From assembly GCA_951406725.2 (NCBI GenBank), contig OX597819.1, forward strand, positions 107,694,001-107,758,000: a stretch of 64,000 nucleotides of DNA, read 5' to 3'. Positions 2,855 through 61,842 of the stretch are shown piece by piece. The DNA comes from Octopus vulgaris. Its lineage: Eukaryota. The notes under the pieces are model-generated. The model saw only the letters and a program-made list of their open reading frames with translations. It did no database searches and was not told the origin of the DNA. Position numbers and translations under genes: made by a program. Positions within the stretch are counted from its first letter, which is position 1, and the number at the start of each line of letters is the position of its first letter.

Positions 2855-3179
2855 GTGTGTATACATACCATTTAATGTACACTGTGTTAAAATAAGAGCC
2901 ACTAATGTTTTCTTGCCATTAAGACACGTGGTTAGACAGGTTTTTAGAACGTGCCTTATATCTCCAAATAATTTTTGGGTTCTGTTCTATTTGAAAATTA
3001 GACGTTACAAGTGGACAAGTTACTGGAATTAGGTTCATAGTCTTTCAGAGTAAGAACGCTTCTCTTTTCTTCAAGCATCCTAATATATCGCCAACCTTAC
3101 TACCTTTAGAGAATAATTTAACTTCATCGTTAATATCATTGTATCTATGATAACTTACATTTAGTGGAAGTGGTATCAT

Positions 3180-3520
3180 TCAGAAACTTGTTATATGGGT
3201 CATTAATACAGGTTATAGGCCTTATGCAAACGCGAAGGTAATTTTAAAGCACTTTATGCAAACCACCAGTCTTCCCAGTACATCGATAAAAGTAAACCCG
3301 CTTGGATGGCTAGTCATGTATAAGATTTGAAGACCAAGGTTTCACTACATACAATCAAGAGGAGAATTGTGGAGAAATCCATGCCATACGTAAATGAATT
3401 TAAAAAATGTAACTTATGCGTAGCTGGAAGATCACATTTTCTTTTAGGACAATGAATTCCACAGCTCTACTTAATTCCGGAACCAAAATTTTCACTGAAC
3501 GCAAACATATGTAGAATATT
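3180..3520 (+). pseudogene. Degenerate Penelope-like (Naiad-type) GIY-YIG endonuclease fragment
   Basis: Manual translation EGNFKALYANHQSS ... SHV*DLKTK ... IKRRIVEKSMPYVNEFKKCNLCVA ... LLNSGTKIFTERKH aligns with the C-terminus of ORF 9304-10494; has stops and frameshifts. Confidence 0.75.
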
Positions 3521-3923
3521 TTTAGCCAACTGGCTGACACTATCCCCTTCGAAATGAGCAGCTGTCTCGCAGACCAGACTTTGGAACTCTTTCTATAAGA
3601 TTATTCTACACTAACTACTTTAAGTGTGACTTCTACCATCAAAGAGAATGCAACTAAATTTCTTTCTTTTCTTGACTTTTTTTCAATGTTATTCATCCTT
3701 TGTCTTCTCATTTCACACTTCGCATCAACGTTCTCGTTTTTTCTTGTAATTTCTTGTGTGCCAGCGTCTTGATACAAGACACTTTATAAAAAACCTGTAT
3801 AAACACGTGTCTCATTGGCAAGAAACTATTACTAGCTCTTATTTTAATACAGCGTACATTAAATGATATTTATCTCTCATTGAATGGAGAAGTTTTTGTT
3901 GATCTAACTGTAACAGAAGAGTA

Positions 3924-3980
<57 letters not shown>

Positions 3981-4280
3981 ATATATATATATCAACAATT
4001 GAGGGTAAAATTAATTAATTAATCAATTTCACCAAGTGTTCAGTATGTAAAAGGACCATTTAAGGCGAATTCAAAATTTTACATTATATAATTAGGGCTT
4101 AGTAAAATAAATTACTTTGCCACATACTGAACTTAGTAGAAATAGCAGCCAAAAAAAAAAAAAAAAATTTTCTTAGCATTTCTACAACTTAAAGAAAATT
4201 TCTCTCAGATAATGTTTACTCCAGATAGCCCACGAAGGTTTGGAGGTAAATACAGAAAAATATCACAAGTACATAGATCG

Positions 4281-4343
4281 TTTGAGTACGTCAACGTTTC
4301 AAGATTAGCCAAATAAAATCAGCATTTCTATCGTCAGCTCAAA
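4281..4343 (-). ncRNA. Type I hammerhead ribozyme
   Basis: UUUGAG-CUGACGA-[stem II]-GAAACGUUGACGUA-CUCAAA: 6-bp stem I, full core, GUA cleavage triplet. Confidence 0.85.
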
Positions 4344-4851
4344 ATTTCTTAATTTGGATTTGGAAACACTAAAAAGAAGGAACTTTACCTATCAGCGAAG
4401 TTATCGCTTCAGATGAACCACTCCGACTAACAGTGTAAACAAATTCAAAATGCGCAAGGCGTAAATTTCTTCAATCCGCTTCCACCCACGTGGTCTATCT
4501 AGCAAACATTATATTTTAACCGCGAGAACCGAGGCAGTATGACCGAGAGAAATGAATTATAATATCAACAATTGAGGGTAAAATTAATTAATTAATCAAT
4601 TTCACCAAGTGTTCAGTATGTAAAAGGACCATTTAAGGCGAATTCAAAATTTTACATTATATAATTAGGGCTTAGTAAAATAAATTACTTTGCCACATAC
4701 TGAACTTAGTAGAAATAGCAGCAAAAAAAAAAAAAAAAATTTCTTAGCATTTCTACAACTTAAAGAAAATTTCTCTCAGATAATGTTTACTCCAGATAGC
4801 CCACGAAGGTTTGGAGGTAAATACAGAAAAATATCACAAGTACATAGATCG

Positions 4852-4914
4852 TTTGAGTACGTCAACGTTTCAAGATTAGCCAAATAAAATCAGCATTTCT
4901 ATCGTCAGCTCAAA
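4852..4914 (-). ncRNA. Type I hammerhead ribozyme (second tandem copy)
   Basis: Identical to 4281-4343. Confidence 0.85.
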
Positions 4915-5761
4915 ATTTCTTAATTTGGATTTGGAAACACTAAAAAGAAGGAACTTTACCTATCAGCGAAGTTATCGCTTCAGATGAACCACTCCGACTA
5001 ACAGTGTCAACAAATTCAAAATGCGCAGGCGTAAATTTCTTCAATCCGCTTCCACCCACGTGGTCTATCTAGCAAACATTATATTTTAACCGCGAGAACC
5101 GATATATACACATGCATATTAGTTTGTGCGTCTGTATGTGTGTGCATATGTGTGCATGCGTGCGTGTATGTGTGAAAGAGTTGAATATAAATGAATTGTC
5201 TCCTACAAGGTTTTATCAAGCGTTAAAAGCAAAACATTATTCTTATTTATGTGATGCATAAACACACATAACAAACACAATGTTCAATCCAAAAATAGAC
5301 ATCGGCCAAGATTATACATTTCCCACAAGAGAGGAATTAGTGGAGTTAGTCCCAAAACGAAAAAATATTGAGTTTCAAATGGAAGTAAATCTCAAAAAGG
5401 GAGATGTGTAAAAAAAGAATTATTCACTTCCAAAAGAAGTCAATCTCAAAAGGGGAGATTCTGTAGTGATAGACATTAACACACCTGTGTTTAAAACATG
5501 GACTCGCTGGATTGTTATATTGTTGATGACGTTAGAGGTCGTTTTTGAATCTTGCGTTTTTGGGGGTAGAAATAAAAAAAGTACGTCTTGTGCAGACATT
5601 GGTTTTACCTCCGCTTCGTTAAATTATATATCCAAACGTGTGTGTGTGTGTGTTTTGTGTGCGTTTGTGTGTTTGTGTCTGCATTTGTCTCCCGTAACCG
5701 CTTGACAACCGGTGTTGGTGTATTTATGTCCCCGTAACGTAGCGGTTCTGCAAAAGAGAAA

Positions 5762-5910
5762 TCCGAATGTATTTTTGCTCAGCTGAAAACAGTTTTGGTA
5801 TAAACTTGGCAGATACAGGTTTCATATCCAAATCTTCAGTGATAACGGACTGAATTGAACCGCAACTAATCTGCACATCCTCTGATAACTCACGGATGGT
5901 GATTCAACGG
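5762..5910 (-). pseudogene. mariner transposase fragment
   Basis: Translates ITIRELSEDVQISCGSIQSVITEDLDMKPVSAKFIPKLFSAEQK (second HTH plus WVPHEL-equivalent linker). Confidence 0.75.
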
Positions 5911-5913
5911 TCA

Positions 5914-5971
5914 GTTATGGACGTACGTTTCTGGATTAGAATCAAAGATTCATTTCCTTCATCAACATAAT
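5914..5971 (-). ncRNA. Hammerhead motif, U3 variant (inverted copy)
   Basis: Reverse complement of 6338-6395 with a few substitutions. Confidence 0.6.
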
Positions 5972-6337
5972 ATTTCGGTACATAAACCTAGATTTTGTTA
6001 TAAAGACCCTCTTTGTTATAATTATATAAACTTTTACCGAATATGGTCCTTTTCCATACCGAAAAAACTGCTTGGTGAAATTTGTTGATTTTATTAAATT
6101 AATTATATTTCACCCTTTATCTGTATTGATTACTTTACTCCCCTAAGACAGAACAACGAATTTATTTTCGGCAGTATTATTTGTAACTCACATGTGAAAA
6201 AATTCTGGAGGGAAATACGAATTCACTTGTCTATATAAATGTGGATATGCTGATTAGCTTCTGTATGCCCCGATGTCGCCTGGTCGGAAATATGGAGGGT
6301 AGGATTTCCTAGCATTTCCAGGTTTATGTACCGGAAT

Positions 6338-6395
6338 ATTATGTTGATGAAGGAAATGAATCTCTGATTCTAACCCAGAAACGTACGTCCATAGT
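6338..6395 (+). ncRNA. Type I hammerhead motif, U3 variant
   Basis: AUUAUG-UUGAUGA-[stem II]-GAAACGUACGUC-CAUAGU; palindromic stem III, GUC triplet. Confidence 0.65.
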
Positions 6396-6694
6396 TGACC
6401 ATGGACTGTTTGATTTCGTTATTTTCCTTCTTTTTCGCCGCATAATGAGTTGCAAATACCGCATAATGAGTTGCAAATATGTCTGTAGAGACATATTTTT
6501 GTAGTAAAAGAAATAACAGTCCTCTGGCTGCTATTTCTAATACTTTCGGTATGTGGTCTAGCAGCGTGTTGCAAAGACCCTCTTTGTTATAATTATATAA
6601 ACTTTTACCGAATATGGTCCTTTTCCATACCGAAAAAACTGCTTGGTGAAATTTGTTGATTTTAATAAATTAATAATATTTCACCCTTTATCTG

Positions 6695-6761
<67 letters not shown>

Positions 6762-6769
6762 TATATATG

Positions 6770-6837
<68 letters not shown>

Positions 6838-6867
6838 TCAAAATAAAAACATGATGCCAAGGATTCA

Positions 6868-6945
6868 GCGGTACATATGTTTCGGGCCTTTATTAGACGG
6901 ATTTATAACAATGCATAATGTGTGTCTATGGCCTTCTTCAGCCGC
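6868..6945 (-). ncRNA. Minimal type I hammerhead ribozyme in the 3' pLTR
   Basis: GCGG-CUGAAGA-AGGCC...GGCCC-GAAACAUAUGUA-CCGC; palindromic CAUAUG stem III as in Penelope pLTR hammerheads. Confidence 0.85.
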
Positions 6946-9303
6946 GCACAACTACTACCTCAAGGACATGTATTACATCAAAAATTCTACGTTGGGGATG
7001 CAAATCCTCTCATTCGCGTACGACATAATGCGGCAACAGCATAAAAATGAAGCGTCCATCTCGTCCTTCTCTCAATGTATAATGAGGAAGTTTGGATGTT
7101 GAGGTAATATAAATAAATGAATAGATAAATATATACATATATAAAAACTGACAGACGTGAAGGAACCTGGTAATAAGAGCAAATAGGGATAAAGATGGAG
7201 GGGCGAGAATTCAGGACGAAGGATAAAAAAATATATTAAAAATGTAGAGTATAAAAAAATTTTTTTAAATTTAAAAAATTTAAAAATTATCAGAAGTATA
7301 AAGGGTATAAGAGTGTAGGAATGTAAAAGAATATAAGGATAAGCGATATATAGTAGTTACGGACCAAACATGGTGGTCAGGAAAATGACAAATTCTGGTT
7401 GTAGAAGTCTTATGTGTCATAAATCAACCGGGGCGTCTGGGGACCTAGTGTATTGTAAATTAGAGTTGTTGAGCCGCTTATCTAGTTCTTCGTAACGTAT
7501 TAAGTGGTCATCATGTACATACGTACACGCATGGATACATACACCCATACACACGCGCACATATACGCACGCATACGCAACTACACGCATACAAGCATAC
7601 ATACGTACTCTCGTGTAAACATATACAGATATATATGGAAAAAGGCGCATGTAGTTGGGTACACGAACCGACGCGCACACATACGTACATACATATACTC
7701 ACATGCGTTCATATAGGCACACTCGCACTTACACGCATGTACAAGACGAAGTGAATCTCTATGCGTGTGGGCAGGAATATGTATACACCTGCACTCGCGT
7801 CCACCCCCACACACATGGGGGAGTAGATCCCTATGCCTATACACAAAGGTGTGCATATGCACAGACACAGGTATAACAAAAGGATCCGTTCTTGCACACG
7901 GGTAAGATACGGAGTCATAGTGGGTACATTAGGTAGACATGAATGTAAGAAACTTGCGGGCAAAAGATTTTAACAGAATATGCATATATATATACACGGA
8001 CAATATACATATACATATATATATACACACACACACATACGCATATATATATATATACGCATATATGCACATATATATATGTATACATATACACATATAC
8101 ACACATATACATACACACACATACACACACCCATACCCGCACACGCACATATATATATATGTGCATACATACACACCCACGTGTACATACATACACGCAT
8201 ATATACATACACACGGACCCACGCACACGTATCCACACGCACACACACACATCTGTGTGTCTATACGTGCGTGTGCACATACACTTACATACACATACAC
8301 AGACACACACACATATAGGTATAGATATAAGAAATTAAAAGATGTATAAAAAATGTATTAAAAAAAAATCTACAAACGCATGTAAAAAAACGGACCCGCG
8401 CACACGTATCTACACGCACATACACACACCTCTGTGTGTCTATACGTGCGTGTACACATACACTTACATACACATACACTTACATACACATACACAGACA
8501 CACACGCATATAGGTATAGATATAAGATATTAAAAGATGTATAAAAAAATGTATATAAGAAATCTACAAAAGCATGTAAAAAAATTATTAAAAAAATTAT
8601 TAAGAAAGTATAGCGGGGGGGGTACACATATAAACACAGATCTTTACTCATACATACGCATACACATATATACATATACATACATACACAGACACCCTTA
8701 TAATCATAAAGCGGATACATAGATAAGTAAATAAGGAAAAAAGTTAAAAATAGACATATATAGAGATATAAAGTGATAAAATAGAGGTAAAAATAGGAGT
8801 AAGAATAAGGGTAAGAATAAGAGTTAGAAATAAAAATAAGAAATAAAATATAAAAATTAAAATAAAGAATAAAAATAAAAATAAGAATAAAAATAAAATA
8901 AAATAAAATAGAATAAAATAAAATAAAAATGTAATCGGGTAAAGCTTAACATGAGATGAAGGTAAAAATAAAGGGTGGTTGAAAATGTAAAGTTATAGGT
9001 GTGTGTTAAAGGTGACCACGTAGGGGCGGGCGGGGGGAACTGAAAATTGGAAGGGTGGGAAGCGGGGTTTGGTGGTGTGCGCTCGACATCAGAGCTAGAA
9101 ATGGAAAAAGGTATAGATATAGGGAAACAAAAAATCTAGATAGGAAGAAGGTAGGTGTAGGAGAAGGAATATATAGGAAAAGAAATATATGGGAGACAAA
9201 ATATGTATATATAGGAAAATATATATAGGAAAACGGGATGCGCTGGAGCCGACAGGTTGCACTTGGGTGGGAGGAAATTGCATGGGGGAGTTGGTATAAT
9301 AGC

Positions 9304-10494
9304 CTAAGTTTTGTAGTATTTGAAAGTATTAATAAGTTTGTGTATACAATATGGCTTGAACTCTGACCTTTTGTTAATAAGATTGTGTTTCTCCTTGAAT
9401 TTCAAGATATTCAGGAGTTCTACACAACATAGTTGGCATCCTGCTCTATTATTTAAATAACGTGCAGCTGATCCGATGATGGACCACCTGAGTTTGAAAC
9501 CTATGCTTTTGTCTTTTAATTCCCAAATTTTCTTAGAAAGGGATGTGCTGCTAGCTTTATGTCTATGCTTAAATGAGGACCGGTGGTTGTAGTATCTAGA
9601 TTTCCAGGAGGTCGAGCAACCTATGTAGGTGAGTGTGTTAAACTGGGTACTCACCTCACATGAATAGATTACATTTTTCGCCCTACATACACCACGTAGC
9701 GGACACTCGGATGCACATATGCAGTTGCAGTGCACTGCATTTCCCGGTCGTGTGATGTTAGTCCCAGGCGGAGGTGTTGCATTAAGTGTAGGGGCACTGT
9801 TATCCTCCTGGTTGTTGATGGGTGTGATGTTGCCTCTGTTGTGTTGGCGGGTGTTATTACTAACTGTTTGGGTATTATGGTTGCCAGCCCGATTATATTG
9901 ACTACTGTCTGGATGAATGGGGTTCGATTGGTTGTTATGGCCTGCTCTTAATCTAGCTGTTCTAATGTTAATATAGTTATGCTTAGCTATGAGGCAGCTC
10001 ATGTTGGGCAGGGTAGAGTAGGAGATCCTAATGGTTTTGTCGGAGAAGATACTTCTATACTTATGGGTGGGTGGGAAGTTGTTGGAAATGATAGAGAATA
10101 TTCTCTTACATAATTTACCCCTAACTGCTATGTTGTATGGTATGTTGTACCATATATATTTGCGTAATCTACTATTTCCGCCTCTATTTATCCTAATGTG
10201 ATCTATGTTGCTCTCGTCGGAAGGGTTATCATTGTGTACTATTCTATTGGTTCGCTCTTTTCCTATACGTTGCTTAGAAGTTAAATTAGAATTAGCGTTA
10301 GCTTGGGTTGAATACGGAGTTCGTTTATAAGTGGGAGTTTTACAGCCGACGGACGATCGTGGGGGGTCTACATAGGATATTCTCTGGGTATACCCAGCAC
10401 TAGAGAGAGCCTGGTTGTAGTGTTGTGCGTGATTATTGAATATATCTCTGTTAGAGGATAGCTTAGTGAGTCTGTCTGAGATGGCTTGGACCAT
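9304..10494 (-). CDS. Penelope-like protein: RT thumb remnant, linker and Cys-rich GIY-YIG endonuclease (396 aa, no RT core)
   Basis: ISDRLTKLSSNRDIF...YNQALSSAGY; IWYNIPY; CNCICASECPLRGVC; VIY...YIG; RYYNH; LSKKIWELK; CQLC; INKRSE...CIH. Confidence 0.85.
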   Translation of the reverse strand: MVQAISDRLTKLSSNRDIFNNHAQHYNQALSSAGYTQRISYVDPPRSSVGCKTPTYKRTPYSTQANANSNLTSKQRIGKERTNRIVHNDNPSDESNIDHIRINRGGNSRLRKYIWYNIPYNIAVRGKLCKRIFSIISNNFPPTHKYRSIFSDKTIRISYSTLPNMSCLIAKHNYINIRTARLRAGHNNQSNPIHPDSSQYNRAGNHNTQTVSNNTRQHNRGNITPINNQEDNSAPTLNATPPPGTNITRPGNAVHCNCICASECPLRGVCRAKNVIYSCEVSTQFNTLTYIGCSTSWKSRYYNHRSSFKHRHKASSTSLSKKIWELKDKSIGFKLRWSIIGSAARYLNNRAGCQLCCVELLNILKFKEKHNLINKRSEFKPYCIHKLINTFKYYKT

Positions 10495-10703
10495 CTGTCA
10501 GTTTTTATATATGTATATATTTATCTATTCATTTATTTATATTACCTCGACATCCAAACTTCCTCATTATACATTGAGAGAAGGACGAGATGGTCGCTTC
10601 ATTTTTATGCTGTTGCCGCATTATGTCGTACGCGAATGAGAGGATTTGCATCCCCAACGTAGAATTTTTGATGTAATACATGTCCTTGAGGTAGTAGTTG
10701 TGC

Positions 10704-10781
10704 GCGGCTGAAGAAGGCCATAGACACACATTATGCATTGTTATAAATCCGTCTAATAAAGGCCCAAAACATATGTACCGC
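10704..10781 (+). ncRNA. Hammerhead in the inverted pLTR, G12A mutant
   Basis: Same as 6868-6945 but GAAA is AAAA at 10766. Confidence 0.7.
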
Positions 10782-10888
10782 TGAATCCTTGGCATCATGT
10801 TTTTATTTTGATTAATTTACTCCACCACCTACACCACCAAACGGTATATACAGGTGCTTACAATTATCAAGTACTCAACCTGAATTTC

Positions 10889-10972
<84 letters not shown>

Positions 10973-10975
10973 TAA

Positions 10976-11036
<61 letters not shown>

Positions 11037-15930: not shown

Positions 15931-17239
15931 ATACAAATATACTAATTTCGTAAGATTACTAAAATAATGGCCTTTTTGTTATGTATATGTGCCTGTGTGT
16001 GTATGTATGTAAAGAGTATTTACAGTAATACAAATAAAAATATATATATATATATATATTGGAAGAACTTTATTCAAATATCTATATTTACAGTGATCTT
16101 AAACACTACTCGAATATGACTTTCTATTGTCCATGAGGTGAATATTTTTTATATTCAAGCGGCTACATTTGTTTGTGTGTCTGTTGTTTTCTCTTTCTTC
16201 CTTTAGTCATATTTTTTACGATGTTTTTATTACCAATATCAGTGTGCTGTTATTAGTTCCCAAGTTCCTGAAATAGGAAATGGACAATGCTTTCATATCT
16301 CCACAAAACTGTAACACCTAACCTTTTGGGGATGCAACAATGGATTTCGCATATGACTTAGTCTTCTATTCTTGTCTAGCTATTCTCCAGGCCGCTTTCC
16401 TCATCGTATAATTTCACATTTCAAACATAGATCCTTGTCTTATCTAATGACAATCGACGAATAGATCTCAAGATGTCACTGTATCTAAATTTTATTCAAT
16501 TCAAATTGGAATCAATCTGCAACTTTACTGTTGCTTAGAGCTGTCGTGATATGGTCGCCGTGAAAGAGGCAGTCTTCAGAAAACATTCGATCCATTTTCT
16601 TTGAAATATTTTCTACTGCTATCAATAAGTTTTTATTTACCCTCTTTGAAGGTTTTATTATTGTTATCCATATTTCGAGACTATGTTTATTAAAAGAACG
16701 CTAAACAGTTCACATTCATCATCCAAGAATCGACATTTTCAGAAAATAACTTTAAAGAGAAGAGAATTCACTCACATTTCATTTGGGTAGACGTTCTGTG
16801 GACTAGGGAACTTCGTCAGCACCGAATTTGTAAGTCATAAGAGGAGTAGAGATGAGTATGTCGGATGGATTAGGTAGAATGGTACGCAACGAGCTAGCTC
16901 TGGGAAAGAGAAACCATTGTAGTGACTATAGGAATACTCGTGATCTTTCATTTATCTCTTGATCTCCAAATGTATTTCTTAAGTATTATTGTGTTATTCA
17001 TGAGATGATGATGAATGGGCTGTTGAACTGGTGCACGCAACGTTTGAATAAATGCTCAATAATTACAAGTTAGCATGCCGATATGCTACTTGTTGAGAAC
17101 ATACAACGTCTTTTGGTGGGTATTTACCTTTTATAAGACAGAAAATATATGTCGACTCCTTTCATTCTTCGTATTTTCTTATATTTTCTCTTTGTAACAC
17201 ACCATGGCACTTGGCGCATTTCATGCAGCTCTAGCTCAC

Positions 17240-17395
17240 TTTTATGCTGTTCGCATTGGTCTGCTGCCAGAATATACCTACTCTGCAAATAATTCCGATC
17301 AGAGAAATTAAACACTTTGCAAGATGGCTTTTATTGTATGATGGATTATACCATATAACGTTTTCTCATCAAGTATTTTTAGATTGGTTGCTTCT
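17240..17395 (-). pseudogene. Possible very old Penelope-like linker fragment
   Basis: ENVIWYNPSYNKS resembles IWYNIPY of ORF 9304-10494. Confidence 0.35.
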
Positions 17396-18534
17396 CATAG
17401 TTATTAAAAGGTACTTAATCATTGATACCCCTTGTCTGTTCTTTTCTCCTCTCCATTAAATGTCGGATGTTTGGAAAACAAACTTATTCTTTAGGATACA
17501 TTTGGATGCATTTCTGACAGCGTTTCAGTGTATGATTAGATTGTGTGTGTGTATGTGTGCGTGTGTTTGTATGTGTGCGTATGTGTGTGCGTGCATGTTT
17601 GCGTGCGTGTGAGTGTGTGCAGATGTATTTCAAACAGGCCAATTGCGAAACGAAACAAATTTATATGTAATTAGTTGAATATAGGATTCCACAAGCAAGT
17701 AAAACAGATATCATTCATTTAAAAGTCATGCGTTCCAACATAAAATCTCCTTCGACACCAAGAAAAACACTGCAGCACTTCCAAAATATATATGGAGGTC
17801 AATGTATATAAAAATAGATTTGGATATAACAGCAGCGTTGCAAGGGAAATACTAAACAAGGTACCAACACTTCAGAAATAATCGATTTGCTGTTAGCTCT
17901 GTCTTACAGAAAAACTTTATATCATCCGCCTTTAACGCATTGATACTTGGCATAATACTTTCTCATGAACTTTAATATACAGAAAAAAGTAACCTTGCTT
18001 GTGAACAGATAAAAAGAAACGATGTGAAAGAGCCAGTGAACGCTTAAACTATTATTAGTCCCTTTCAGAATTGAACGAAATCATAGTTCGGATATATACG
18101 AATAACCCCTTAGATTTCTTACAAAATAGTTTATTGAGCACTTTTTGATTTTTGAGCCACAAAACAGAGAAAACATGTATCTACATGTGAGCGTGTGAAT
18201 GTGTTTGTGCGCGCTTTTTGTGTAACATGGAGAAAGAGAAAAAGAGTGTTATAAATATGCATGTTCACTGCACACGTTCCAAAAACTGTTATTCATCGTC
18301 AGGATCATTGCATTTCGCAAGACAAAAAAATGTCGAATTTTACTTGTGAATTATATTTACACTTATGCTATTTAAAAGACTTCTACATAAAACTTTTAAA
18401 CAACTTTCACTTTTCCTCTCATTCTCTCTTCACGCACATACACATACATACATGTGTGTATGTGTACGTGTGCGTGTGTTTGGGTGGATGTGAATATATA
18501 TATATACACATATATACATTTCTTCATATACATT

Positions 18535-28538: not shown

Positions 28539-29144
28539 ACACACACATACATACAAACATACACACATACATACAGACATATATATATATATTTATTTAC
28601 TTTTATGTATAATTTTACCCTCACGGGCTATCCTTTACTGGAAAGCAATACTCTAGTATTGCATTACTATTTTCATTGAAACTTCTTCACTGTTCTCGTT
28701 CTGTCAACGTTTTGGCGTTCAGTCGAGTGTATTGGTATGGATGTGGCAACATTTGAAATATTGTCGAGGTATATGTGGCTGATGAAGATAAATCAAATAT
28801 ATGTGGGCAGACATATTTTAAAGAATCTGAAACCGGTACCACATTATCCCTTTCTAGGTATTTCATTTTTCAGATGTTCTCCCTAGAGGTAAAACAATTT
28901 TTTTCATGTTTGTTGCACACACGCACTTTTACTAGTACATACGCAGTGAAGCTATACATTAGCGTCGTATTTATTACGTTCGCTATTTTCCAGTAAATTA
29001 TTTACTTTTATATATATATATATATATATATATGGTGCTCGTGCATGTGCTTCTTGCATTTATTTACTTTTATATATAATATTATATATATATCCGTGCC
29101 ATTTGATTTACTTTATATATATAATATATATATATATATATCTT

Positions 29145-34293: not shown

Positions 34294-36198
34294 TTAAGTC
34301 AAGTTTTGTTCAAGTAGTGAGTTCTTGTTGGGTGAGTTGTATCCAATTATGGGTGGCTTATCTGGTATTCTTTGAAGGAATCTATCCAGACTCTGTTTAA
34401 AGTTGATGGGATCCTTTTCCTCTTTGATCTCCCTCGGGACAATGTTAAATAGAGCAGGGCCTGTTGAGGAAAAGAAATTATGTTGCAGTGTACATGTATA
34501 TTGTGATCTTGAATTGGGCAGGGGACGTATAGCCCGTGGTCCAAGTCTTGGATGAACCTTGAAGCTAATGTTTAGGTCGTTTGGGCAAAGTTGGCGGTAT
34601 ATTTTCCACATCGTACAAATGATGTACCGCTCACGGCGACGCTGGAGGGAGTAAAGTTTCAAGGCTTTAAGGCGATCCCAATAATCGAGAGCAGCCATGC
34701 CTTCAATTTGTTTAGTGAGTGCCCTCTGGGGTGACTCAATTCTGGAGATGTTTTGTCTTGTGTGAGGAGACCACAGTGGGCAGCAGTATTCAAGGTGTGG
34801 CCGTACAAAGGAGGAAAAAAGTGGTATGATGACACCTTGTTCTCTGGACCGGAAAGTTCTTAAGATCCAGGAACTCATCCTACGAGCTATATCGACCTTC
34901 TTGTTGATGTGTGCACTCCAACTGAGATCGTCATCAACAATTACACCCACGTCTCTGATATTGTTAGAGGCTGTGAGCGGTTCCCCTGAAGGAAGAGAGT
35001 ATGGTTGTTTTAGTGAGGAATTTCTTCCAAAATGCATCAGCTCAAATTTTCCCTCATTCAGTTGCATTTTGTTTCTGTCTGCCCATTGACTCACAGCATA
35101 TAGATCAGACTGGAGTTGAGTTCGGTCTGCTTCTTCATTGACGATTTGCTGGAGCTTAGTGTCATCAGCAAATATTTTCACTTTGCAGTAATGTACGACA
35201 CTGGAAAGGTCGTTTACGTAAATTATAAAGAGTAGCGGACCCAAAACAGTTCCCTGGGGAACACCGCTGGTGACTTTTGCTGGGTTTGAGTGGACTCCAT
35301 CAACTACAACATATTGTGTTCTATTCGCCAGGAAATACTTAATCCAGTGTAGAACTTTTCCACGGATTCCAACATTTGCCAATTTTGAGAGTAGGATGTT
35401 ATGGTCTACCCTGTCGAACGCTTTACTGAAGTCAAGATATATGACCTCAGAGTTCGAACCTGTTCCCAAGGCTTTGAGTACATCTTCAATGTGGTGTAAG
35501 AGCTGTGTTAGACAGTCCCTGCCACAGCGAAAGCCATGCTGATTTGCATTTAGGAGTTTGTGGGTCTCCAGGAAGTCAGCTATCCTTGATCTTAACACTC
35601 TTTCAAACACTTTAATGATGTGGGAGGTGAGTGAGATTGGGCGATAGTTGACTGCGAGGGATCTGTTTCCCTGTTTGAAAACCGGAATGACCGACTGGGA
35701 TAGAAACTGTTTCGGTATATAACCTGCGTCTAACGAATTTCTCCAGAGGTTGGTCAGAGGGACTGCAAGTCGGTATCTACATTCCTTCAGGAGACTAGCG
35801 GGAAATCTATCAGGGCCTACAGCAGAGTAATGTTTGACCTTATTTATTGCTGCTACGATGTCGGTGGCAGTGAAGGTTATGTCTGCGATTTTGTGTTGGG
35901 AGTCAACTTCGTTCGTTTCCCTTACGTCAATATCAGTGGGAACACTAAAGACAGAGCAGTATTGTTTCTGCAGTATTTCTGCCATTTCTTTAGCATCGTG
36001 TTGGGGAATGCCGTTATCATCAATCAATGGCCCAATGGGTGAGACAGTGGTTCTATGCTTATTTGCATAAGAATAGAACACCTTTGGGTTCTGTTTGATG
36101 TTTTTGATTACCCATTGTTCCTCCACAGCTCTTTGATTTTCAATGGAGGTTTTCATGTTGGTCTGCAGATGAAGTTTGTCCAGCTCTAGTCTTTTCAT
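34294..36198 (-). CDS. LINE ORF2 reverse transcriptase region (634 aa open)
   Basis: NYRPISLTS, QHGFR, YLDFSKAFDRV, GVPQGTVLGPLLF, FADD, RPHLEYCCPLWSP, LYSLQRRRER. Confidence 0.92.
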   Translation of the reverse strand: MKRLELDKLHLQTNMKTSIENQRAVEEQWVIKNIKQNPKVFYSYANKHRTTVSPIGPLIDDNGIPQHDAKEMAEILQKQYCSVFSVPTDIDVRETNEVDSQHKIADITFTATDIVAAINKVKHYSAVGPDRFPASLLKECRYRLAVPLTNLWRNSLDAGYIPKQFLSQSVIPVFKQGNRSLAVNYRPISLTSHIIKVFERVLRSRIADFLETHKLLNANQHGFRCGRDCLTQLLHHIEDVLKALGTGSNSEVIYLDFSKAFDRVDHNILLSKLANVGIRGKVLHWIKYFLANRTQYVVVDGVHSNPAKVTSGVPQGTVLGPLLFIIYVNDLSSVVHYCKVKIFADDTKLQQIVNEEADRTQLQSDLYAVSQWADRNKMQLNEGKFELMHFGRNSSLKQPYSLPSGEPLTASNNIRDVGVIVDDDLSWSAHINKKVDIARRMSSWILRTFRSREQGVIIPLFSSFVRPHLEYCCPLWSPHTRQNISRIESPQRALTKQIEGMAALDYWDRLKALKLYSLQRRRERYIICTMWKIYRQLCPNDLNISFKVHPRLGPRAIRPLPNSRSQYTCTLQHNFFSSTGPALFNIVPREIKEEKDPINFKQSLDRFLQRIPDKPPIIGYNSPNKNSLLEQNLT

Positions 36199-36239
36199 TG
36201 TTGTTGAATGTGGATGTTGTGCGTGGGAATATCTTAATT

Positions 36240-37215
36240 GGTTGATTTTTTTGTTGAGTCTTTTGATGCGCCTGATGAGTGTTTTTTTCTTTTTAGGGAG
36301 CCGGTTTCTGTTTGTGTTAGTAGATTTCTTGGGAGCGTGTTTAGAGCATGTATAGGTGACAATGTTTTCAAAGTGCTGCCACGCGGTCTCAATATGAGAG
36401 GAATTGAGAGTAAAAGACCAGTCGATGGAAGACAGATCCTTTCTGATTGTTCCCTAGTCCGCTTTGTGGAAGTTTATGTTGTCAAATGGGTGCCATGGAG
36501 TGGGATTGGTTGGTTTGGTTTTTATATGTCGGGAATTAAGATTGCAGAGTACCATGTCGTGGTTTGAGAGGAGAGTTTTTTCGTCTGAAATACTGTGAAC
36601 ATAGCTAGAGTGATTGGTCAATACCAGATCCAAGATCGTTTTATTCTGTCTCGTTGGTTCAAGCACTAGCTGAGTTAGGAAATACTCATCCATCAGATTA
36701 AAGAGCAGTTCTGCTGCTGCTCTATCTGATGTAGAGCACTTGCCTAACTTCAGAGTATTTGTGGGCCAGTTCACATGAGGGAGGTTAAAATCACCCATCA
36801 CTAGTATGTTTCCGGAGTGGTACTTCCGAAGGAAGGACTTGACTTTGCTAAGGCACTCTTCAAAGTACTTTAGAGGTGCCTGGGGAGGCCTGTAAAGACC
36901 AACAATGTTATGTCCTTGGCTTTGTTGTATAGTGATACCGATTCACAGTAGCCATTGGAAAATATGTCCTTGGCATCAAGTGAAAAGGAGTCATGGATAA
37001 AGATGGCTGTCCCTCCCTTATTTCGGTCTGTGCGATCCGCACGAACAATGGTGAAATATTTTATTTTCACCTCTGCGTCCATATGGGTGTTGTTCAGGTG
37101 AGTCTCGGTAAGGATAAAGAAAGGGAAGCAGTGTGCCATTTCGGCAAGCCAACTCTCTATATATGGGATCTTCCATTTTTGGGCAATAATTGATGGGTTG
37201 ATGCCACGTACATCT
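36240..37215 (-). pseudogene. LINE APE endonuclease domain, frameshifted
   Basis: LTETHL, RADR..KGG, GDFN, PTR..ILDLVLTN, SNHD, split across frames. Confidence 0.85.
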
Positions 37216-38144
37216 AACAGGAATGTCGAGGTAAGGGAAGTTGGTAATGGGTGAGTGGTCCTTGTGATTTGCATAGATGGTTGGTGATAGCTCGCTGGAT
37301 CTCCTGACTTAGGTCGGCCTTCATATTTTCTAGGTATGTCAGTAAAAAAGAGTTACTTGTTTGGTTTGCCACTTGGTCAGAGGATACATATTTCATGTTG
37401 GCGTTATTTGGTGTTTTTTCATGGTTCTGTCTACGTTGTTTGATTGTAGGAGGGGAAACATGGTTGTATTTTGTTCTTGTTGTCCTAGATTTCCTCTGTT
37501 CCTGTTTATATTTATTCTGTGATCGTTTTGTGCCCTTCAGATGGTGGTGGTTGCATTCTGGGTTCAGGCACATCCTTTGTGAGACAGAAGTTTGGCACAG
37601 TTTAGGATGGAATAAGGTGCATAGACAATAGTCTTTTCTTTAATTTAATTTTTTATTATCCATCTGGACTATTTCATTTCTGCACGCTAATTTTATTTTT
37701 AATTTATTCCCATTCATGTGAAACCACTTATTCAAGTTCAAATCATTGATGCAATTTTATACCAATTGCTATTTTTACTTATATTATACTTTAGTTTGAT
37801 TTTAATTATTACTTACTACATATAATTCAATTGTTATTATTATTTTTATTGTTAAAGTGAAAGCATCTGATATAAAATAGAGAAATATTTTTGTTTCACT
37901 TTTAACACGTAATACTGAAATAGTGGAGAAGATATGATATTGCTATGGGCTCGCTCTAGGCAAGAAGTTGAACCTTTTTTCCCATGAAACTACATGGACC
38001 CTAAGTAAGGCATGTGTAAAATTTGAATGAAATTGGTTGTGTAGTTCTCAAGTTTTAGGGAAACACACAGACAGACAGACAGACACACACACATTCTCAT
38101 TTTATATATATAAAGATATCTTACTGATATGTAAGTGAACAGCT

Positions 38145-45145: not shown

Positions 45146-45279
45146 CATATATATACACACATACATATGCATACATATTTCCATATATACACATATATAC
45201 ATACACAGACATGTAGAAGAACGCATATACGCACGTACAAGTATGTATATATATATATATATATTTATTATATAGAAGG

Positions 45280-45330
45280 AGCTTCTACAGGACTAGAACT
45301 GTTTCATTCAAGAGAAATCTTCAGGAAGCT
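45280..45330 (-). ncRNA. Type I hammerhead ribozyme (left arm)
   Basis: Reverse complement of 45488-45538. Confidence 0.8.
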
Positions 45331-45487
45331 AGTTAACAAGAATTGTGTTGGCATTTATACATTTAGGCAGGTTTATAGGGGTGGTGGTGGGGGACTTTTT
45401 GGGGGTAGGCATAGCGCAAAAAGTCCCCCACCACCACCCCTATAAACCTGCCTAAATGTATAAATGCCAACACAATTCTTGTTAACT

Positions 45488-45538
45488 AGCTTCCTGAAGA
45501 TTTCTCTTGAATGAAACAGTTCTAGTCCTGTAGAAGCT
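45488..45538 (+). ncRNA. Type I hammerhead ribozyme (right arm)
   Basis: AGCUUC-CUGAAGA-UUUCUCUUGAAU-GAAACAG(UUCUAGUC)CUGUA-GAAGCU. Confidence 0.8.
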
Positions 45539-45644
45539 CCTTCTATATAATAAATTAATTTTACTCTGCTATGTATTGAGTACCTTATTTACTGTGGTTA
45601 ACCCCGAATCAACCCGGGACCTACATATATATATATATATATAC

Positions 45645-49310: not shown

Positions 49311-51019
49311 AGAGAGAAACAGCTATTTAGTTATTCCATCAATAGTGAAAAGATATTATCTATAACACCCACATAGAAATTAATTAAATATTTTATAATT
49401 ATTATTCTAAAAATCTCATAACAAATCAAACATTAAAAAATCGTTGATACATAATACAGGGAAAAGAATTTCGGCACTTTCTTCTAATTTTGAGATTTTC
49501 CAAAAACATGCACCTTATTATAATGAAGCCTTGAGGGAGGCAGGATATAATAAAAGTATTAAATTCTTTAATAATTGTAGATTTAATAATAATATAAAAA
49601 AATAATAATATAAATGATTCTAATATTATTTATAATAATAAACCAAATATTAAGAATTATGCTAAGTTTTGTTCAGTTAATTATGGTTTTAATAATAGGT
49701 ATTATGATAATACAAAAAATAAATATAATAAAAGAGTAAAAGATAATAAATTTAATGTGGTTAATGATAATAAGAAATATAATATAATAAATAAAAGTAA
49801 TGTTAACAATAAGTATAAAATTTGGTTAATTATTCCTTGTGGGGCTCAGGTTAAAACAAACATTATTAAAGAGATATTATAACTAATTGAATTATTCATT
49901 GTACATAATAAAAAATATAATAATAGTTTTTCTAGTAATAATTTTGGAGTTGGATATTCTACTACTAATAATGTTGATAACATTATTTCATCTTTTGATA
50001 GTTTTAATTTCATCTTTTAATAGCTTTTAATAGTAAAGATAAGACTAAATGTAAATTTAAAAATAAATGTAACTTGGTTGATGTAGTACATAAATGTGTA
50101 GTGACTCTGATAGATGATAATTTTAATAGGAATAGTTATAATATAAATGCGATTTACGTGGGGTCGACATCTAATAAAATTAAATTAAGGGCTAAGGGTG
50201 GCCCAACACATGCACTCATTTAAGAATAAAATATTGATTAATCCTACTGGTCTTAGCAAATATATATGGGAATTAAAATCTAAAGGAATTATGTATAATT
50301 TAAAAGGGAAATAGTTTTTAAAGCTAAATCTTATCGAATAGGTAATAATTTTTGTTTACAATGTACAAATAAATTTATGGAGATATTACAATCTAAAAAT
50401 AAGTAATTAATTCACAAGATGAGAGGAAATTAGATGTAGACATAGGTTGAATTATTTATATAATAAGTTTAGATAATTTGTGAATATATATAACCTGGTT
50501 TATGTTATTAATTTATGTAGTTATATTATGTAGTATTGTAATGAGTATAAATTAGTAGGTTATGTAGTGTATGAACATAAATAGAATCAGTTTAAACCAA
50601 GTCATTAATAAAAGTAATTGAAGGATATATATTAATTTATGAACATTTAATTAATTTTATATTTTTACATATAATGTCGTAGTTTTAAATTATTGAGAAT
50701 TTAAAATTTTTCCCCTTAAGTTGTATATCACGTCACGTTTTTTAATTTTTATTTTTTATCGTTAAATACATATATCTATTTCTTTATTTATTGTATATTT
50801 ATTGTTTACGTCATGATTAACGAGATAGGTTTTTTTTTACAGCGGTAGAATGTAAGTTTAAATTTGAAATTTCTTTTAACTGGTTTTCATCAATAAGATA
50901 AGTCATGTTTTTGCTTTACATTAATATTGTTAAATTTTATTAAATTATTTACTGCTAATATACATATATTTATATATTTATTGTTTTATTATAATATCTA
51001 AATTTATTTATGTTATTTT

Positions 51020-56043: not shown

Positions 56044-56074
<31 letters not shown>

Positions 56075-56703
56075 ATAATTGATATAGGATAAAAAAATTT
56101 TCGGGAAAAAATTTTATCAATGGCCAGCATATCAAAAAATGCCTTTAGAGGTAAAATTTATACATAATTTACAAGATAAGGGCAGAACAAAAATTCTAAT
56201 GCCAGATACGCCGAAACAAAAAATTGTCGATAATCATTAAATTTATGCGTCTCGAAACAAACCGATAGAAATCTCTAAAAAAATTCGTTATTACCGTATT
56301 GGTCCAATTTCGGGGTTAATTCACAAGAAATGTTCCCCTCTTCAGCGGCACATACGCGAGATATAAATGAAATACTTATTCATACCCATGGAAGAAGCAA
56401 GCACCAAGTCCCGAGCAGACTTAAGTACCCCAAATATATCCAAAATAGAAAAATCTTCGGCGCACCTCGAGACACGTGTGATTCGAACTAGAAACTTTCA
56501 CAGAGTGATAGAATCCGTAAGTGAACACTATTCTATTTATAATTGATATAGGATAAACATTTTTTCGGGACGGTAATAACGAATTTTTTAGAGATTTCTA
56601 TCGGTTTGTTTCGAGACGCATAAATTTAATGGTTATCGACATTTTTTTTGTTTCGACGTATCTGGCATTAGAATTTTTCTTCTGCCCTTATCTTGTAAAT
56701 TAT
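56075..56703 (-). mobile_element. Non-coding hammerhead element: 464-bp unit, 32-bp terminal direct repeat and inverted arm
   Basis: ATAATTGATATAGGATAAA at 56075 and 56539; 56164-56297 inverted to 56570-56703. Confidence 0.85.
56292..56350 (-). ncRNA. Type I hammerhead ribozyme
   Basis: UGCCG-CUGAAGA-GGGG(loop)CCCC-GAAAUUGGACCAAUA-CGGUA. Confidence 0.88.
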
Positions 56704-56712
56704 TTATATATA

Positions 56713-57368: not shown

Positions 57369-57413
57369 GTAAGTATGTATGTATGTATGCATGTATGTAT
57401 GTATATGTATATA

Positions 57414-58180
57414 CTAGCAATGCATCCCGGCATGGGTCATGTGTTATGACCTACACGCATATTGTATTATTTGCTCCTTTTCAAAATTTTTATTTCCCTC
57501 TATCCCCACTGCAATTTCTTAATTTGTAACTTTTCAATTTTTTTTTTTTTAAATTTTGTTATCTACGTAGAAAAATACAGAGATTACGAATCTGAGCAGT
57601 ATATATTATAGTTTAATTTTTCTTAAATAAAAACTCATACCCCTTCCCTCACCTCGCCCACCCATCACCTACCAGCTTTCAAAAAGCTAAAATCTCCTAA
57701 TCTTTCACTTTCATCTTATGCTTCCCACATGCGTAGAATTCTACTGAAATAGTAGACTTAAAAAATACCAGACCACCACCAGAAAACCCGACATGCTAGA
57801 AACAACAGGTAAACGACATTATTTCTGAAGAAACTTACCTGCTTTCCAAAAAGCTAAATGTGAAACATTGTGAGTGTGTAGCTTTTTGAAAGTGGTGAGG
57901 TGAGGGTAAAATTCTTAAAGAATCCTCTGTTTTTCTCCGTGGGTTACTAAGAAAAAATTGAAAAAAGTAAAAGGTTAACTTGGTGTGGAGAGGGAGAAAA
58001 TTAAAATATTGAGTACGTGTTCTGTGGGGGAAATCTCCTGTATCGCAAACATAGGAATCGGAAGAAATTTAGGAAAATAAAGTAAGTGGTGGGACGGAAA
58101 TGTCACTTCGGACATGCCAGAAAGAAGACATAAAGGACAGGATTTCTGGGAAAACTTCCTTTTAAGTTTATATCGAAGAT
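57414..58180 (-). mobile_element. Probable non-autonomous Helitron
   Basis: CTAG at 57414 followed by a GC-rich hairpin remnant similar to the 33975 end; 5' end uncertain. Confidence 0.45.
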
Positions 58181-61746: not shown

Positions 61747-61835
61747 GTACTAGCTACAGAAGTACATATTCTAAAATTGGAAGATTAGCATGGCTCCTGC
61801 GCAAGGATGACACGCAAATTCGTGAATCATTCTAT
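61747..61835 (+). pseudogene. U6: U6 snRNA pseudogene lacking the ACAGAGA box
   Basis: CTAAAATTGGAA^GATTAGCATGGCTCCTGCGCAAGGATGACACGCAAATTCGTGAA matches U6 with a ~13-nt deletion. Confidence 0.9.
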
Positions 61836-61842
61836 CTAAGAT

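What the first reader, a model, noticed from the sequence alone, without database searches (positions are those of the whole stretch)
3989..6696. Two diverged but homologous ~570-nt hammerhead monomers: candidate retrozyme / circular-RNA family
Seen: 3989-5102 (-) is a tandem with period 571-573, and 6002-6696 (+) is a partial tandem with period 571. Each unit is non-coding and has one type I hammerhead about 290-300 nt before its (TA)n-abutting end. The two families differ over most of their length but share GAAATG...CTAA in stem II and tail blocks GGCTGCTATTTCTA, GTATGTGG, ATGGTCCTTTT.CATAC.GAA and CTTGGTGAAATT. Known: Penelope pLTRs and metazoan non-LTR retrozymes use tandem hammerheads to release unit-length RNAs that can circularise. 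Inference: conserved period and blocks despite divergence point to a non-autonomous RNA replicon mobilised by Penelope-like RTs.
Basis: partly seen in the sequence, partly recalled or inferred. Interest (0 to 1): 0.82.

Follow-up and report, generated by a model that had tools for sequence, protein, structure and literature searches.

The report
Hammerhead retrozyme pair in TA microsatellites
Two related, non-coding repeats of about 570 bases, each unit carrying a hammerhead-type self-cutting RNA motif, end at TA microsatellites next to remnants of Penelope-type retrotransposons; they are likely parasitic "retrozymes" copied by those transposons, a kind already known from other animals, and their cutting and circular RNA are untested.

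Summary
Both repeats are real. A (3989-5102, minus) is 1.95 units of 571-573 nt with two identical type I hammerhead motifs whose predicted cuts lie 571 nt apart. B (about 6002-6696, plus) is 1.2 units with one degenerate motif (U3, A·A at stem II), so this locus cannot release a monomer.

Their homology is significant only in the last ~160 nt, which folds into three shared helices (23 of 23 pairs kept, only 2 informative). The equal period is probably chance: B's 571 includes a 21-nt duplication.

All four fold far better than shuffles (z -2.7 to -7.1); coding Penelope ends do not. In the 465-nt element the inverted copy starts at the predicted cut site.

Verdict: non-LTR retrozymes, i.e. non-autonomous Penelope derivatives, a class already published (51-972 bp). 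New here: the host (probably octopus, recalled), a shared terminal hairpin, and insertion footprints. Copy number, junction constancy, expression and cleavage remain untested.

The parts
4562..5102 (-). Element A, unit A1 (541 nt, lacks the first 29 nt of the unit)
3989..4561 (-). Element A, unit A2 (573 nt), 3' end abuts (TA)n 3924-3992
4852..4914 (-). Type I hammerhead of A1: CUGACGA core at 4908, U·U at base of stem II, stem III ACGUUGACGU, predicted cut after 4858
4281..4343 (-). Type I hammerhead of A2, identical to A1's; predicted cut after 4287
4287..4857 (-). Predicted cut-to-cut monomer RNA, 571 nt; circular fold -138.7 kcal/mol, z -3.8
   Evidence: prediction
3989..4190 (-). Tail domain of A shared with B: helices H1 (AGAAAU/AUUUCU), H2 (UUCAGUAUG/CAUACUGAA), terminal hairpin H3 (GGUGAAAU/AUUUUACC)
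5909..5992 (-). 5' inverted fragment of B (78 of 84 identical to 6317-6400), holding a second copy of B's hammerhead
6002..6125 (+). Element B, partial unit B1 (tail only, 124 nt; BLAST extends it to 5996)
6126..6696 (+). Element B, unit B2 (571 nt), 3' end abuts (TA)n 6695-6832
6338..6395 (+). Degenerate type I hammerhead of B: UUGAUGA (U3 with G8), A·A at base of stem II, palindromic stem III ACGUACGU, predicted cut after 6389
6438..6479 (+). Perfect 21-nt tandem duplication inside B2
6509..6696 (+). Tail domain of B: H1, H2 (UUCGGUAUG/CAUACCGAA), H3 (GGUGAAAU/AUUUCACC)
6833..10979 (-). Context, element C: 5'-truncated Hydra-type Penelope (ORF 9304-10497 with CxCX5C, CxxC, CxH; hammerhead at 6941; inverted 5' copy 10494-10979), sharing the (TA)n tract with B
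2861..3923 (+). Context, element D: decayed Hydra-type Penelope end (endonuclease remnant 3234-3443; inverted arms 2861-2962 and 3771-3873), sharing the (TA)n tract with A
28590..29009 (+). Parallel case E: 405-nt non-coding hammerhead unit between (TA)n tracts, 12-14-nt direct repeat at its ends
56074..56711 (-). Parallel case G: 465-nt non-coding hammerhead unit in partial tandem; inverted copy (56570-56711) begins at the predicted cut site 56297

Best explanation
A and B are non-coding, head-to-tail repeats of a ~570-nt hammerhead-bearing unit that end at (TA)n tracts, and they are likely non-LTR retrozymes copied in trans by a Penelope-like reverse transcriptase, probably of the Hydra clade. 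Shown: tandem layout, hammerhead motifs, homologous tails, no ORF, (TA)n 3' ends, B's inverted 5' fragment, Hydra-type remnants on both sides. Predicted: each unit folds as one closed domain, in which the head pairs with the stretch after the hammerhead and encloses it, followed by a three-helix tail. Inferred mechanism: (1) a transcript of a dimer such as A cuts itself at both hammerheads, probably as a dimeric ribozyme through the self-complementary stem III, giving a 571-nt monomer whose ends are held close by the long stem and can be ligated into a circle; (2) the Penelope protein nicks (TA)n and starts reverse transcription inside the RNA, at or just after the terminal hairpin H3; (3) on a circle or an uncut multimer it runs through the hammerhead and past the start point, leaving inserts longer than one unit with a fixed 3' end and a variable 5' end (A 1.95, B 1.22, G 1.07 units); (4) a second priming event adds the inverted 5' piece. 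A is young and could still yield the monomer; B is an older, decayed, near-monomeric copy of a sister family.
For: Tandem junction equals the 3' insertion end in A and B, and the two ends are homologous. Hammerheads 8 observed against 0.075 expected; stem III pairs fully as a dimer in A (10 of 10) and B (8 of 8). A's U·U at the base of stem II occurs in 14 of 26 Hydra-clade rows of Craig et al. File S2 (counted by eye) and in axolotl HHR_Amex2. Circular-fold z: A -3.8, B -7.1, G -2.7, E -4.3, against +1.2 and +0.5 for the last 570 nt of coding elements C and D and 1 of 30 control windows below -2.7. A and B stay structured without the tail (z -3.1, -5.0) and share the head-to-post-hammerhead stem with G. 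Tail helices: 23 of 23 pairs kept, one double-sided and one single-sided change. No Hydra-type coding remnant in A, B or E; one E=0.91 match overlapping G's inverted piece. Partial tandems, inverted 5' copies and (TA)n targeting are described for Penelope and Hydra elements; internal initiation at a stem-loop is shown in vitro for a Poseidon element. G's inverted copy starts at the predicted cut, within 1 nt of microhomology.
Against: One locus per family: copy number and constancy of the junction are unknown (no genome; no reads laid). No autonomous partner with an A/B-type tail was found: C and D ends do not align with A or B (16 to 153 of 300 shuffles as good), and four of five short tail motifs are absent from the Craig et al. 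supplement, the fifth being one match inside an unrelated coding stretch. The junction motif trained on A, B, E, G ranks the coding ends only weakly (C P about 0.04, D about 0.10; F, whose coding status is unknown, about 0.004). The active hammerhead fold lies 1.7 (A) and 8.4 (B) kcal/mol above the local minimum and stem I is not among the likely helices of either monomer. 21 of 23 tail pairs are invariant and uninformative. In Xenopus only 1 of 9 predicted retrozyme dimers cleaved, and hammerhead cleavage was dispensable for insertion of the Poseidon element in vitro. Only 1 of 5 inverted junctions (B, C, D, F, G) lies at a cut site.
Confidence: 0.66

Rival explanations
1. A and B are 3' ends (pLTRs) of coding Penelope-like elements with a long structured 3' region; each tandem is two 5'-truncated copies joined by template jumping, so the 'unit' is only a truncation length and no independent monomer family exists.
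For: Partial tandems and inverted 5' copies are the normal Penelope layout; the window holds at least four coding remnants; element C has a 2.4-kb non-coding 3' region; retrozyme consensus sequences match pLTRs in Xenopus; hammerheads with dimer-type stem III are standard in pLTRs.
Against: The unit starts fall close to the start of the predicted closed fold (unit positions 9 in A, 23-46 in B, 30 in E, 1 in G); ends of the coding elements C and D are not structured; Hydra-1_Obim and C carry the hammerhead about 30-40 nt from the end, not 300; no coding remnant in the units (only a Hydra-type profile was tried).
Confidence: 0.22
2. A monomer was inserted once and the second copy arose later in DNA by slippage or unequal crossover (satellite birth); RNA circles play no part in making the tandems.
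For: Li et al. propose local amplification of Penelope termini into tandem repeats; B shows a 21-nt DNA-type duplication; A1 and A2 are 99% identical.
Against: In A, B and G the last unit ends exactly at (TA)n while the first is 5'-truncated at a different point each time, and B and G carry an inverted piece joined to the truncated copy; DNA duplication would not keep that polarity.
Confidence: 0.08
3. The units are integrated copies of a viroid-like circular RNA that replicates RNA-to-RNA in the animal and is only occasionally reverse-transcribed.
For: Highly self-paired non-coding circles are predicted; sequence heterogeneity of mussel retrozyme circles left RNA-RNA replication open.
Against: No hammerhead on the opposite strand of any unit other than in the inverted fragment; every structural feature is explained by Penelope-type insertion.
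Confidence: 0.03

Closest known systems
Metazoan non-LTR retrozymes (Cervera and de la Pena 2020, PMC7229834; parts 2-4 of 6 of the text read, supplement not readable)
   Same: Tandem non-coding units, type I hammerhead, GC below 50%, self-paired predicted circle, coexistence with Penelope elements; U·U at the base of stem II as in axolotl HHR_Amex2.
   Different: 570 nt against 150-450 there; stems I and II carry internal loops (AAU/YGA, AAU/UAA) rather than the usual short loop 2; hammerhead not free in the predicted circle (as for some mussel circles); inverted 5' pieces and (TA)n targeting are not described in the parts read; RNA untested here.
Non-LTR retrozymes as non-autonomous Penelope derivatives (Li, Clavereau and Pollet 2026, 10.64898/2026.07.22.740005; parts 1-3 of 5 read, supplements closed)
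   Same: Same claim of origin; size range 51-972 bp covers 570; most families have few units; A meets their two-hammerhead criterion.
   Different: 35 genomes (31 vertebrates, 3 insects, 1 coral), no mollusc named in the text read; evidence is co-occurrence and pLTR phylogeny, not insertion footprints; B fails their criterion.
Hydra-clade Penelope-like elements, incl. Hydra-1_Obim (Craig et al. 2021, PMC8557442; sections 6 and 11, passages, supplement parts 2, 52, 53 read)
   Same: (TA)n targeting, type I hammerhead with near-palindromic stem III, partial tandems and inverted 5' copies; neighbours C and D are of this kind.
   Different: A and B have no ORF, a hammerhead 300 nt from the end and a tail not found in the published consensus set by motif search.
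Anole Poseidon element PAc (Frangieh et al. 2024, PMC11167929; parts 1-2 of 4 read)
   Same: Internal start of reverse transcription at a stem-loop with two adjacent start sites, AT-rich target.
   Different: Autonomous; cleavage dispensable in vitro and no RNA ends at the cut site, whereas element G here has a junction at the cut site.

Membership tests
Metazoan non-LTR retrozyme | Head-to-tail tandem units | tested here: met
   A 1.95 units, B 1.22 units
Metazoan non-LTR retrozyme | Complete type I hammerhead in two consecutive units (Li et al. 'active' criterion): element A | tested here: met
   cores at 4908 and 4337; active fold -9.8 kcal/mol
Metazoan non-LTR retrozyme | Same criterion: element B | tested here: not met
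   one sense hammerhead, with U3 and A·A at stem II; B is filed as a decayed relative, not as an active retrozyme
Metazoan non-LTR retrozyme | No protein coding | tested here: met
   longest sense ATG frames 14 and 37 aa, antisense 34 and 51 aa; no Hydra-profile hit
Metazoan non-LTR retrozyme | Unit size (150-450 bp in 2020; 51-972 bp in 2026) and GC below 50% | tested here: met
   571 nt, GC 0.33 and 0.36: outside the 2020 range, inside the 2026 range
Metazoan non-LTR retrozyme | Highly self-paired monomer | tested here: met
   predicted only: z -3.8 and -7.1, 61-65% paired; controls
Metazoan non-LTR retrozyme | Canonical loop 1-loop 2 tertiary contact | tested here: inconclusive
   A and B share internal loops AAU/YGA (stem I) and AAU/UAA (stem II); role unknown
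Metazoan non-LTR retrozyme | Target-site duplication; absence of PBS and PPT | not tested
   (TA)n flanks hide any duplication; PBS/PPT not searched
Metazoan non-LTR retrozyme | Dispersed multi-copy family with a constant unit | not testable with these tools
   no genome held; no reads or contigs were laid
Metazoan non-LTR retrozyme | Self-cleavage and accumulation of linear and circular monomer RNA | not testable with these tools
   needs transcription assay and Northern or RNase R
Hydra-clade Penelope-like element (autonomous) | ORF with RT and C-terminal GIY-YIG endonuclease | tested here: not met
   absent from A and B; remnants present in neighbours C and D
Hydra-clade Penelope-like element (autonomous) | Insertion into (TA)n; partial tandem with inverted 5' copy | tested here: met
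   3' ends of A and B at (TA)n; inverted piece in B, none in A

The most novel reading that the evidence does not exclude
The window preserves a direct record of how animal retrozymes move: several unrelated non-coding hammerhead RNAs (405-571 nt) share a terminal G(G)URAAAU/AUUUYAC hairpin that marks the start site for a Hydra-clade Penelope reverse transcriptase; longer-than-unit inserts come from circles, and element G's inverted copy stops at the hammerhead-cut 5' end, showing that cleaved RNA is a template in vivo. That would name the helper enzyme and its cis-signal and contradict the in vitro finding that cleavage is irrelevant to Penelope insertion.
Probability: 0.25. Interest if true: 0.68.

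Novelty: new member of a known kind. Interest (0 to 1): 0.42.

Why it matters
As a class it is known. If the reading holds it extends animal retrozymes to cephalopods (host assignment recalled; no octopus retrozyme appeared in searches) and, more usefully, gives a small testable system for an open question: which enzyme moves retrozymes, what RNA signal it reads, and whether hammerhead cleavage or circularisation matters. A young dimer (A), a candidate start hairpin and a candidate helper clade sit in one window.

Tried and rejected
Rfam: no hammerhead family at gathering score (only a U6 copy) or at E<=10; taken as a limit of the models for long stem II, since the descriptor signal is far above shuffles. 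Whole genome: not held. Sequencing runs: 20 of 24 listed runs hold part of 3989-6696, under 4 organism labels and 10 studies; no RNA holder listed on record; six guessed-RNA runs hold 0.12-0.20 of the words; none was laid and the query included a spacer with other repeats, so this is no evidence on copy number or expression. Metagenome scan with a tail motif: 2 matches, limited to 21-32 nt and without other A/B similarity; chance. Viral contigs: 0 matches (one search used a pattern with one letter too many and is void). Earlier-findings look-ups by place and sequence: nothing. Protein word search with C's endonuclease: 0 of 40 candidates scored; phmmer then gave 4420 relatives. Pfam does not name C and names its long relatives only below cut-off; the Hydra assignment rests on motifs and on visual comparison with Hydra-1_Obim rows. 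Pseudoknot or second ribozyme in the tail: considered because B can pair GCUGCUA with UAGCAGC; that helix has probability 0.0 in the whole monomer and no counterpart of the same length in A; dropped. The H1 probability of 0.0 for A came from picking the wrong AGAAAT copy; one search gives 0.99. E's unit was set 1 nt too long and redone. nhmmer with the A/B tail found no further copy in the window. 'Conserved 571 period' as evidence of selection: rejected. Control window 50630 was not folded (30 of 31, time limit).

Full report
Setting. The window is AT-rich animal DNA, full of microsatellites and transposon remnants. I take it to be octopus from a recalled resemblance of its SINEs; no call tests this. 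No whole genome is held and no reads were laid, so everything below rests on this window and on papers.

The observation. Element A (minus strand) is A1 4562-5102 plus A2 3989-4561, identical at 539 of 573 columns, with A1 lacking the first 29 nt. Element B (plus strand) is a 124-nt tail 6002-6125 plus a 571-nt unit 6126-6696; tail and unit end match at 122 of 124. Both end at (TA)n. In both, the tandem junction is the same point as the 3' insertion end. A type I hammerhead descriptor finds 8 sites in the window against 0.075 in 40 shuffles, two of them in A, with predicted cuts 571 nt apart. B's own motif needs a relaxed descriptor: it has U3 opposite G8 and A·A at the base of stem II, and its active fold is 8.4 kcal/mol above the local minimum, against 1.7 for A. 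The natural covariant reported for Penelope hammerheads is U3-A8, not U3-G8, so B is probably impaired. Rfam finds neither. Neither unit codes: longest sense ATG frames are 14 and 37 aa and a profile of 150 Hydra-type proteins hits four remnants elsewhere in the window but not A or B.

How alike A and B are. The local score is 64 against at most 38 in 300 shuffles, all of it in the last ~160 nt; the rest is not significant (27 of 300). The tail folds well on its own (z -3.6 and -4.4). In whole monomers both form helices H1, H2 and a terminal hairpin H3 at probabilities 0.88-0.99. All 23 pairs are kept, with one double-sided and one single-sided change; 21 are invariant and say nothing. The hammerheads share internal loops in stems I and II. 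The equal period is weak evidence: B's 571 includes a perfect 21-nt duplication.

B has an inverted copy of its hammerhead region at its 5' end (5909-5992, 78 of 84 identical), the arrangement described for Penelope-like elements. The (TA)n tract ending B also ends element C, a 5'-truncated coding element whose endonuclease has the CxCX5C, CxxC and CxH motifs of the Hydra clade and whose long relatives show RWK and DKT-like motifs. The tract ending A also ends element D, a decayed element of the same type. Hydra elements target (TA)n and include an octopus family. Two more non-coding hammerhead units lie in the window: E (405 nt) and G (465 nt).

Whole-unit folding. Circular folds give z -3.8 (A), -7.1 (B), -2.7 (G) (40 shuffles each) and -4.3 (E). 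The last 570 nt of C and D give +1.2 and +0.5, and 1 of 30 control windows falls below -2.7 (12-15 shuffles). In A, B and G the head of the unit pairs with the stretch after the hammerhead and encloses an arm plus the ribozyme; E is rod-like. In a cut-to-cut monomer that stem would hold the two cut ends together. These are predictions, and linear folds are as stable as circular ones, so they show a self-contained RNA, not a circle.

Insertion footprints. A, B and G are longer than one unit (1.95, 1.22, 1.07) and run through the hammerhead; E's 12-14-nt end repeat cannot be told from a target-site duplication. Copying past the cut needs a circle, an uncut multimer or a template jump, as Cervera and de la Pena proposed for Penelope elements. 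The 3' ends fall in or shortly after a hairpin of the form G(G)TRAAAT/ATTTYAC: 13 nt after it in A and B, in its loop for E and for G's inverted copy, about 75 nt after it for G (the hairpin is weak in E and G, -5.2 and -4.7 kcal/mol for the folded windows). This parallels the two adjacent internal start sites at a stem-loop shown for the anole Poseidon element. G's inverted copy begins at the predicted cut, within 1 nt. For a 465-nt unit that is about 0.4% by chance, about 2% over the five inverted junctions looked at; the other four do not lie at a cut. The motif link to coding ends is weak (C P about 0.04, D about 0.10), and C and D ends do not align with A or B, so the helper is not identified.

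Best explanation and rivals. Non-LTR retrozymes moved in trans by a Penelope-like, probably Hydra-clade, protein (0.66). A could release a 571-nt RNA; B cannot from this locus. The main rival is doubly truncated 3' ends of an unseen coding element (0.22); it is weakened by the closed folds and by the hammerhead position (300 nt from the end against about 30-40 in C and Hydra-1_Obim) but only a genome-wide table can exclude it. DNA-level duplication (0.08) and an RNA-replicating circle (0.03) explain less. Against activity: 1 of 9 predicted Xenopus dimers cleaved and cleavage was dispensable in vitro for Poseidon.

Comparison with what is known. The class, the circular RNAs and the Penelope link are published; sizes of 51-972 bp are reported. 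Searches for octopus with hammerhead ribozyme or retrozyme, and cephalopod with ribozyme terms, listed no paper describing such elements; a 2026 octopus repeat annotation has no occurrence of ribozyme, hammerhead or retrozyme in its main text (passages). The supplement of PMC7229834 and those of the 2026 preprint could not be read and may list cephalopod cases; Repbase was not available. Papers seen: 10.64898/2026.07.22.740005 parts 1-3 of 5; PMC8557442 sections 6 and 11, passages, supplement parts 2, 52, 53 and term searches; PMC7229834 parts 2-4 of 6; PMC11167929 parts 1-2 of 4; PMC4209133 parts 1-2 of 4; PMC13282606 passages; others as search listings only.

Verdict. Real, correctly classed in outline, a new member of a known kind. 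Interest 0.42. The footprint reading (start hairpin, cleaved RNA as template) has probability 0.25 and would merit 0.68.

Noticed in passing
window 56074-56711: Element G: 465-nt non-coding hammerhead unit in partial tandem; its inverted copy starts at the predicted cut site (56297) and ends in the loop of the terminal hairpin. Best single hint that cleaved RNA was reverse-transcribed.
   Followed up: yes
window 28590-29009: Element E: 405-nt non-coding hammerhead unit between (TA)n tracts, rod-like predicted fold (z -4.3), 12-14-nt end repeat; short copies of its last bases follow at about 29056-29115.
   Followed up: partly
window 45263-45620: Element F: 294-nt palindrome made of a hammerhead-bearing end and its inverted copy, with a ~60-nt tail on one side only; no coding remnant found.
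   Followed up: partly
window 6833-10979 (-): Element C: Hydra-type Penelope fragment with an open 397-aa frame, an unusually long (2.4 kb) microsatellite-rich 3' region, and a hammerhead with a 51-nt stem II region and A·C at its base.
   Followed up: partly
window 17078-17938 and 49366-50418: Two more decayed Hydra-type Penelope remnants; the first has pieces on both strands (inverted arrangement).
   Followed up: no
window 57413-58100: The one control window that folded strongly (z -3.7); starts at a microsatellite with TACTAGCA, holds internal inverted repeats and a copy of the junction motif at 57907; looks like a Helitron-type or MITE element (recalled).
   Followed up: no
window 61747-61841 (+): U6 snRNA copy (Rfam 65 bits) with a 12-nt internal deletion; probably a pseudogene.
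   Followed up: no
window 34294-37352 (-): LINE remnant with an open 719-aa reverse-transcriptase frame and endonuclease frames upstream (identified by eye).
   Followed up: no
window 5760-5908: B's 5' flank is not (TA)n; it reads like a mariner transposase fragment (recalled), so the 5' side of the original target may have been deleted.
   Followed up: no
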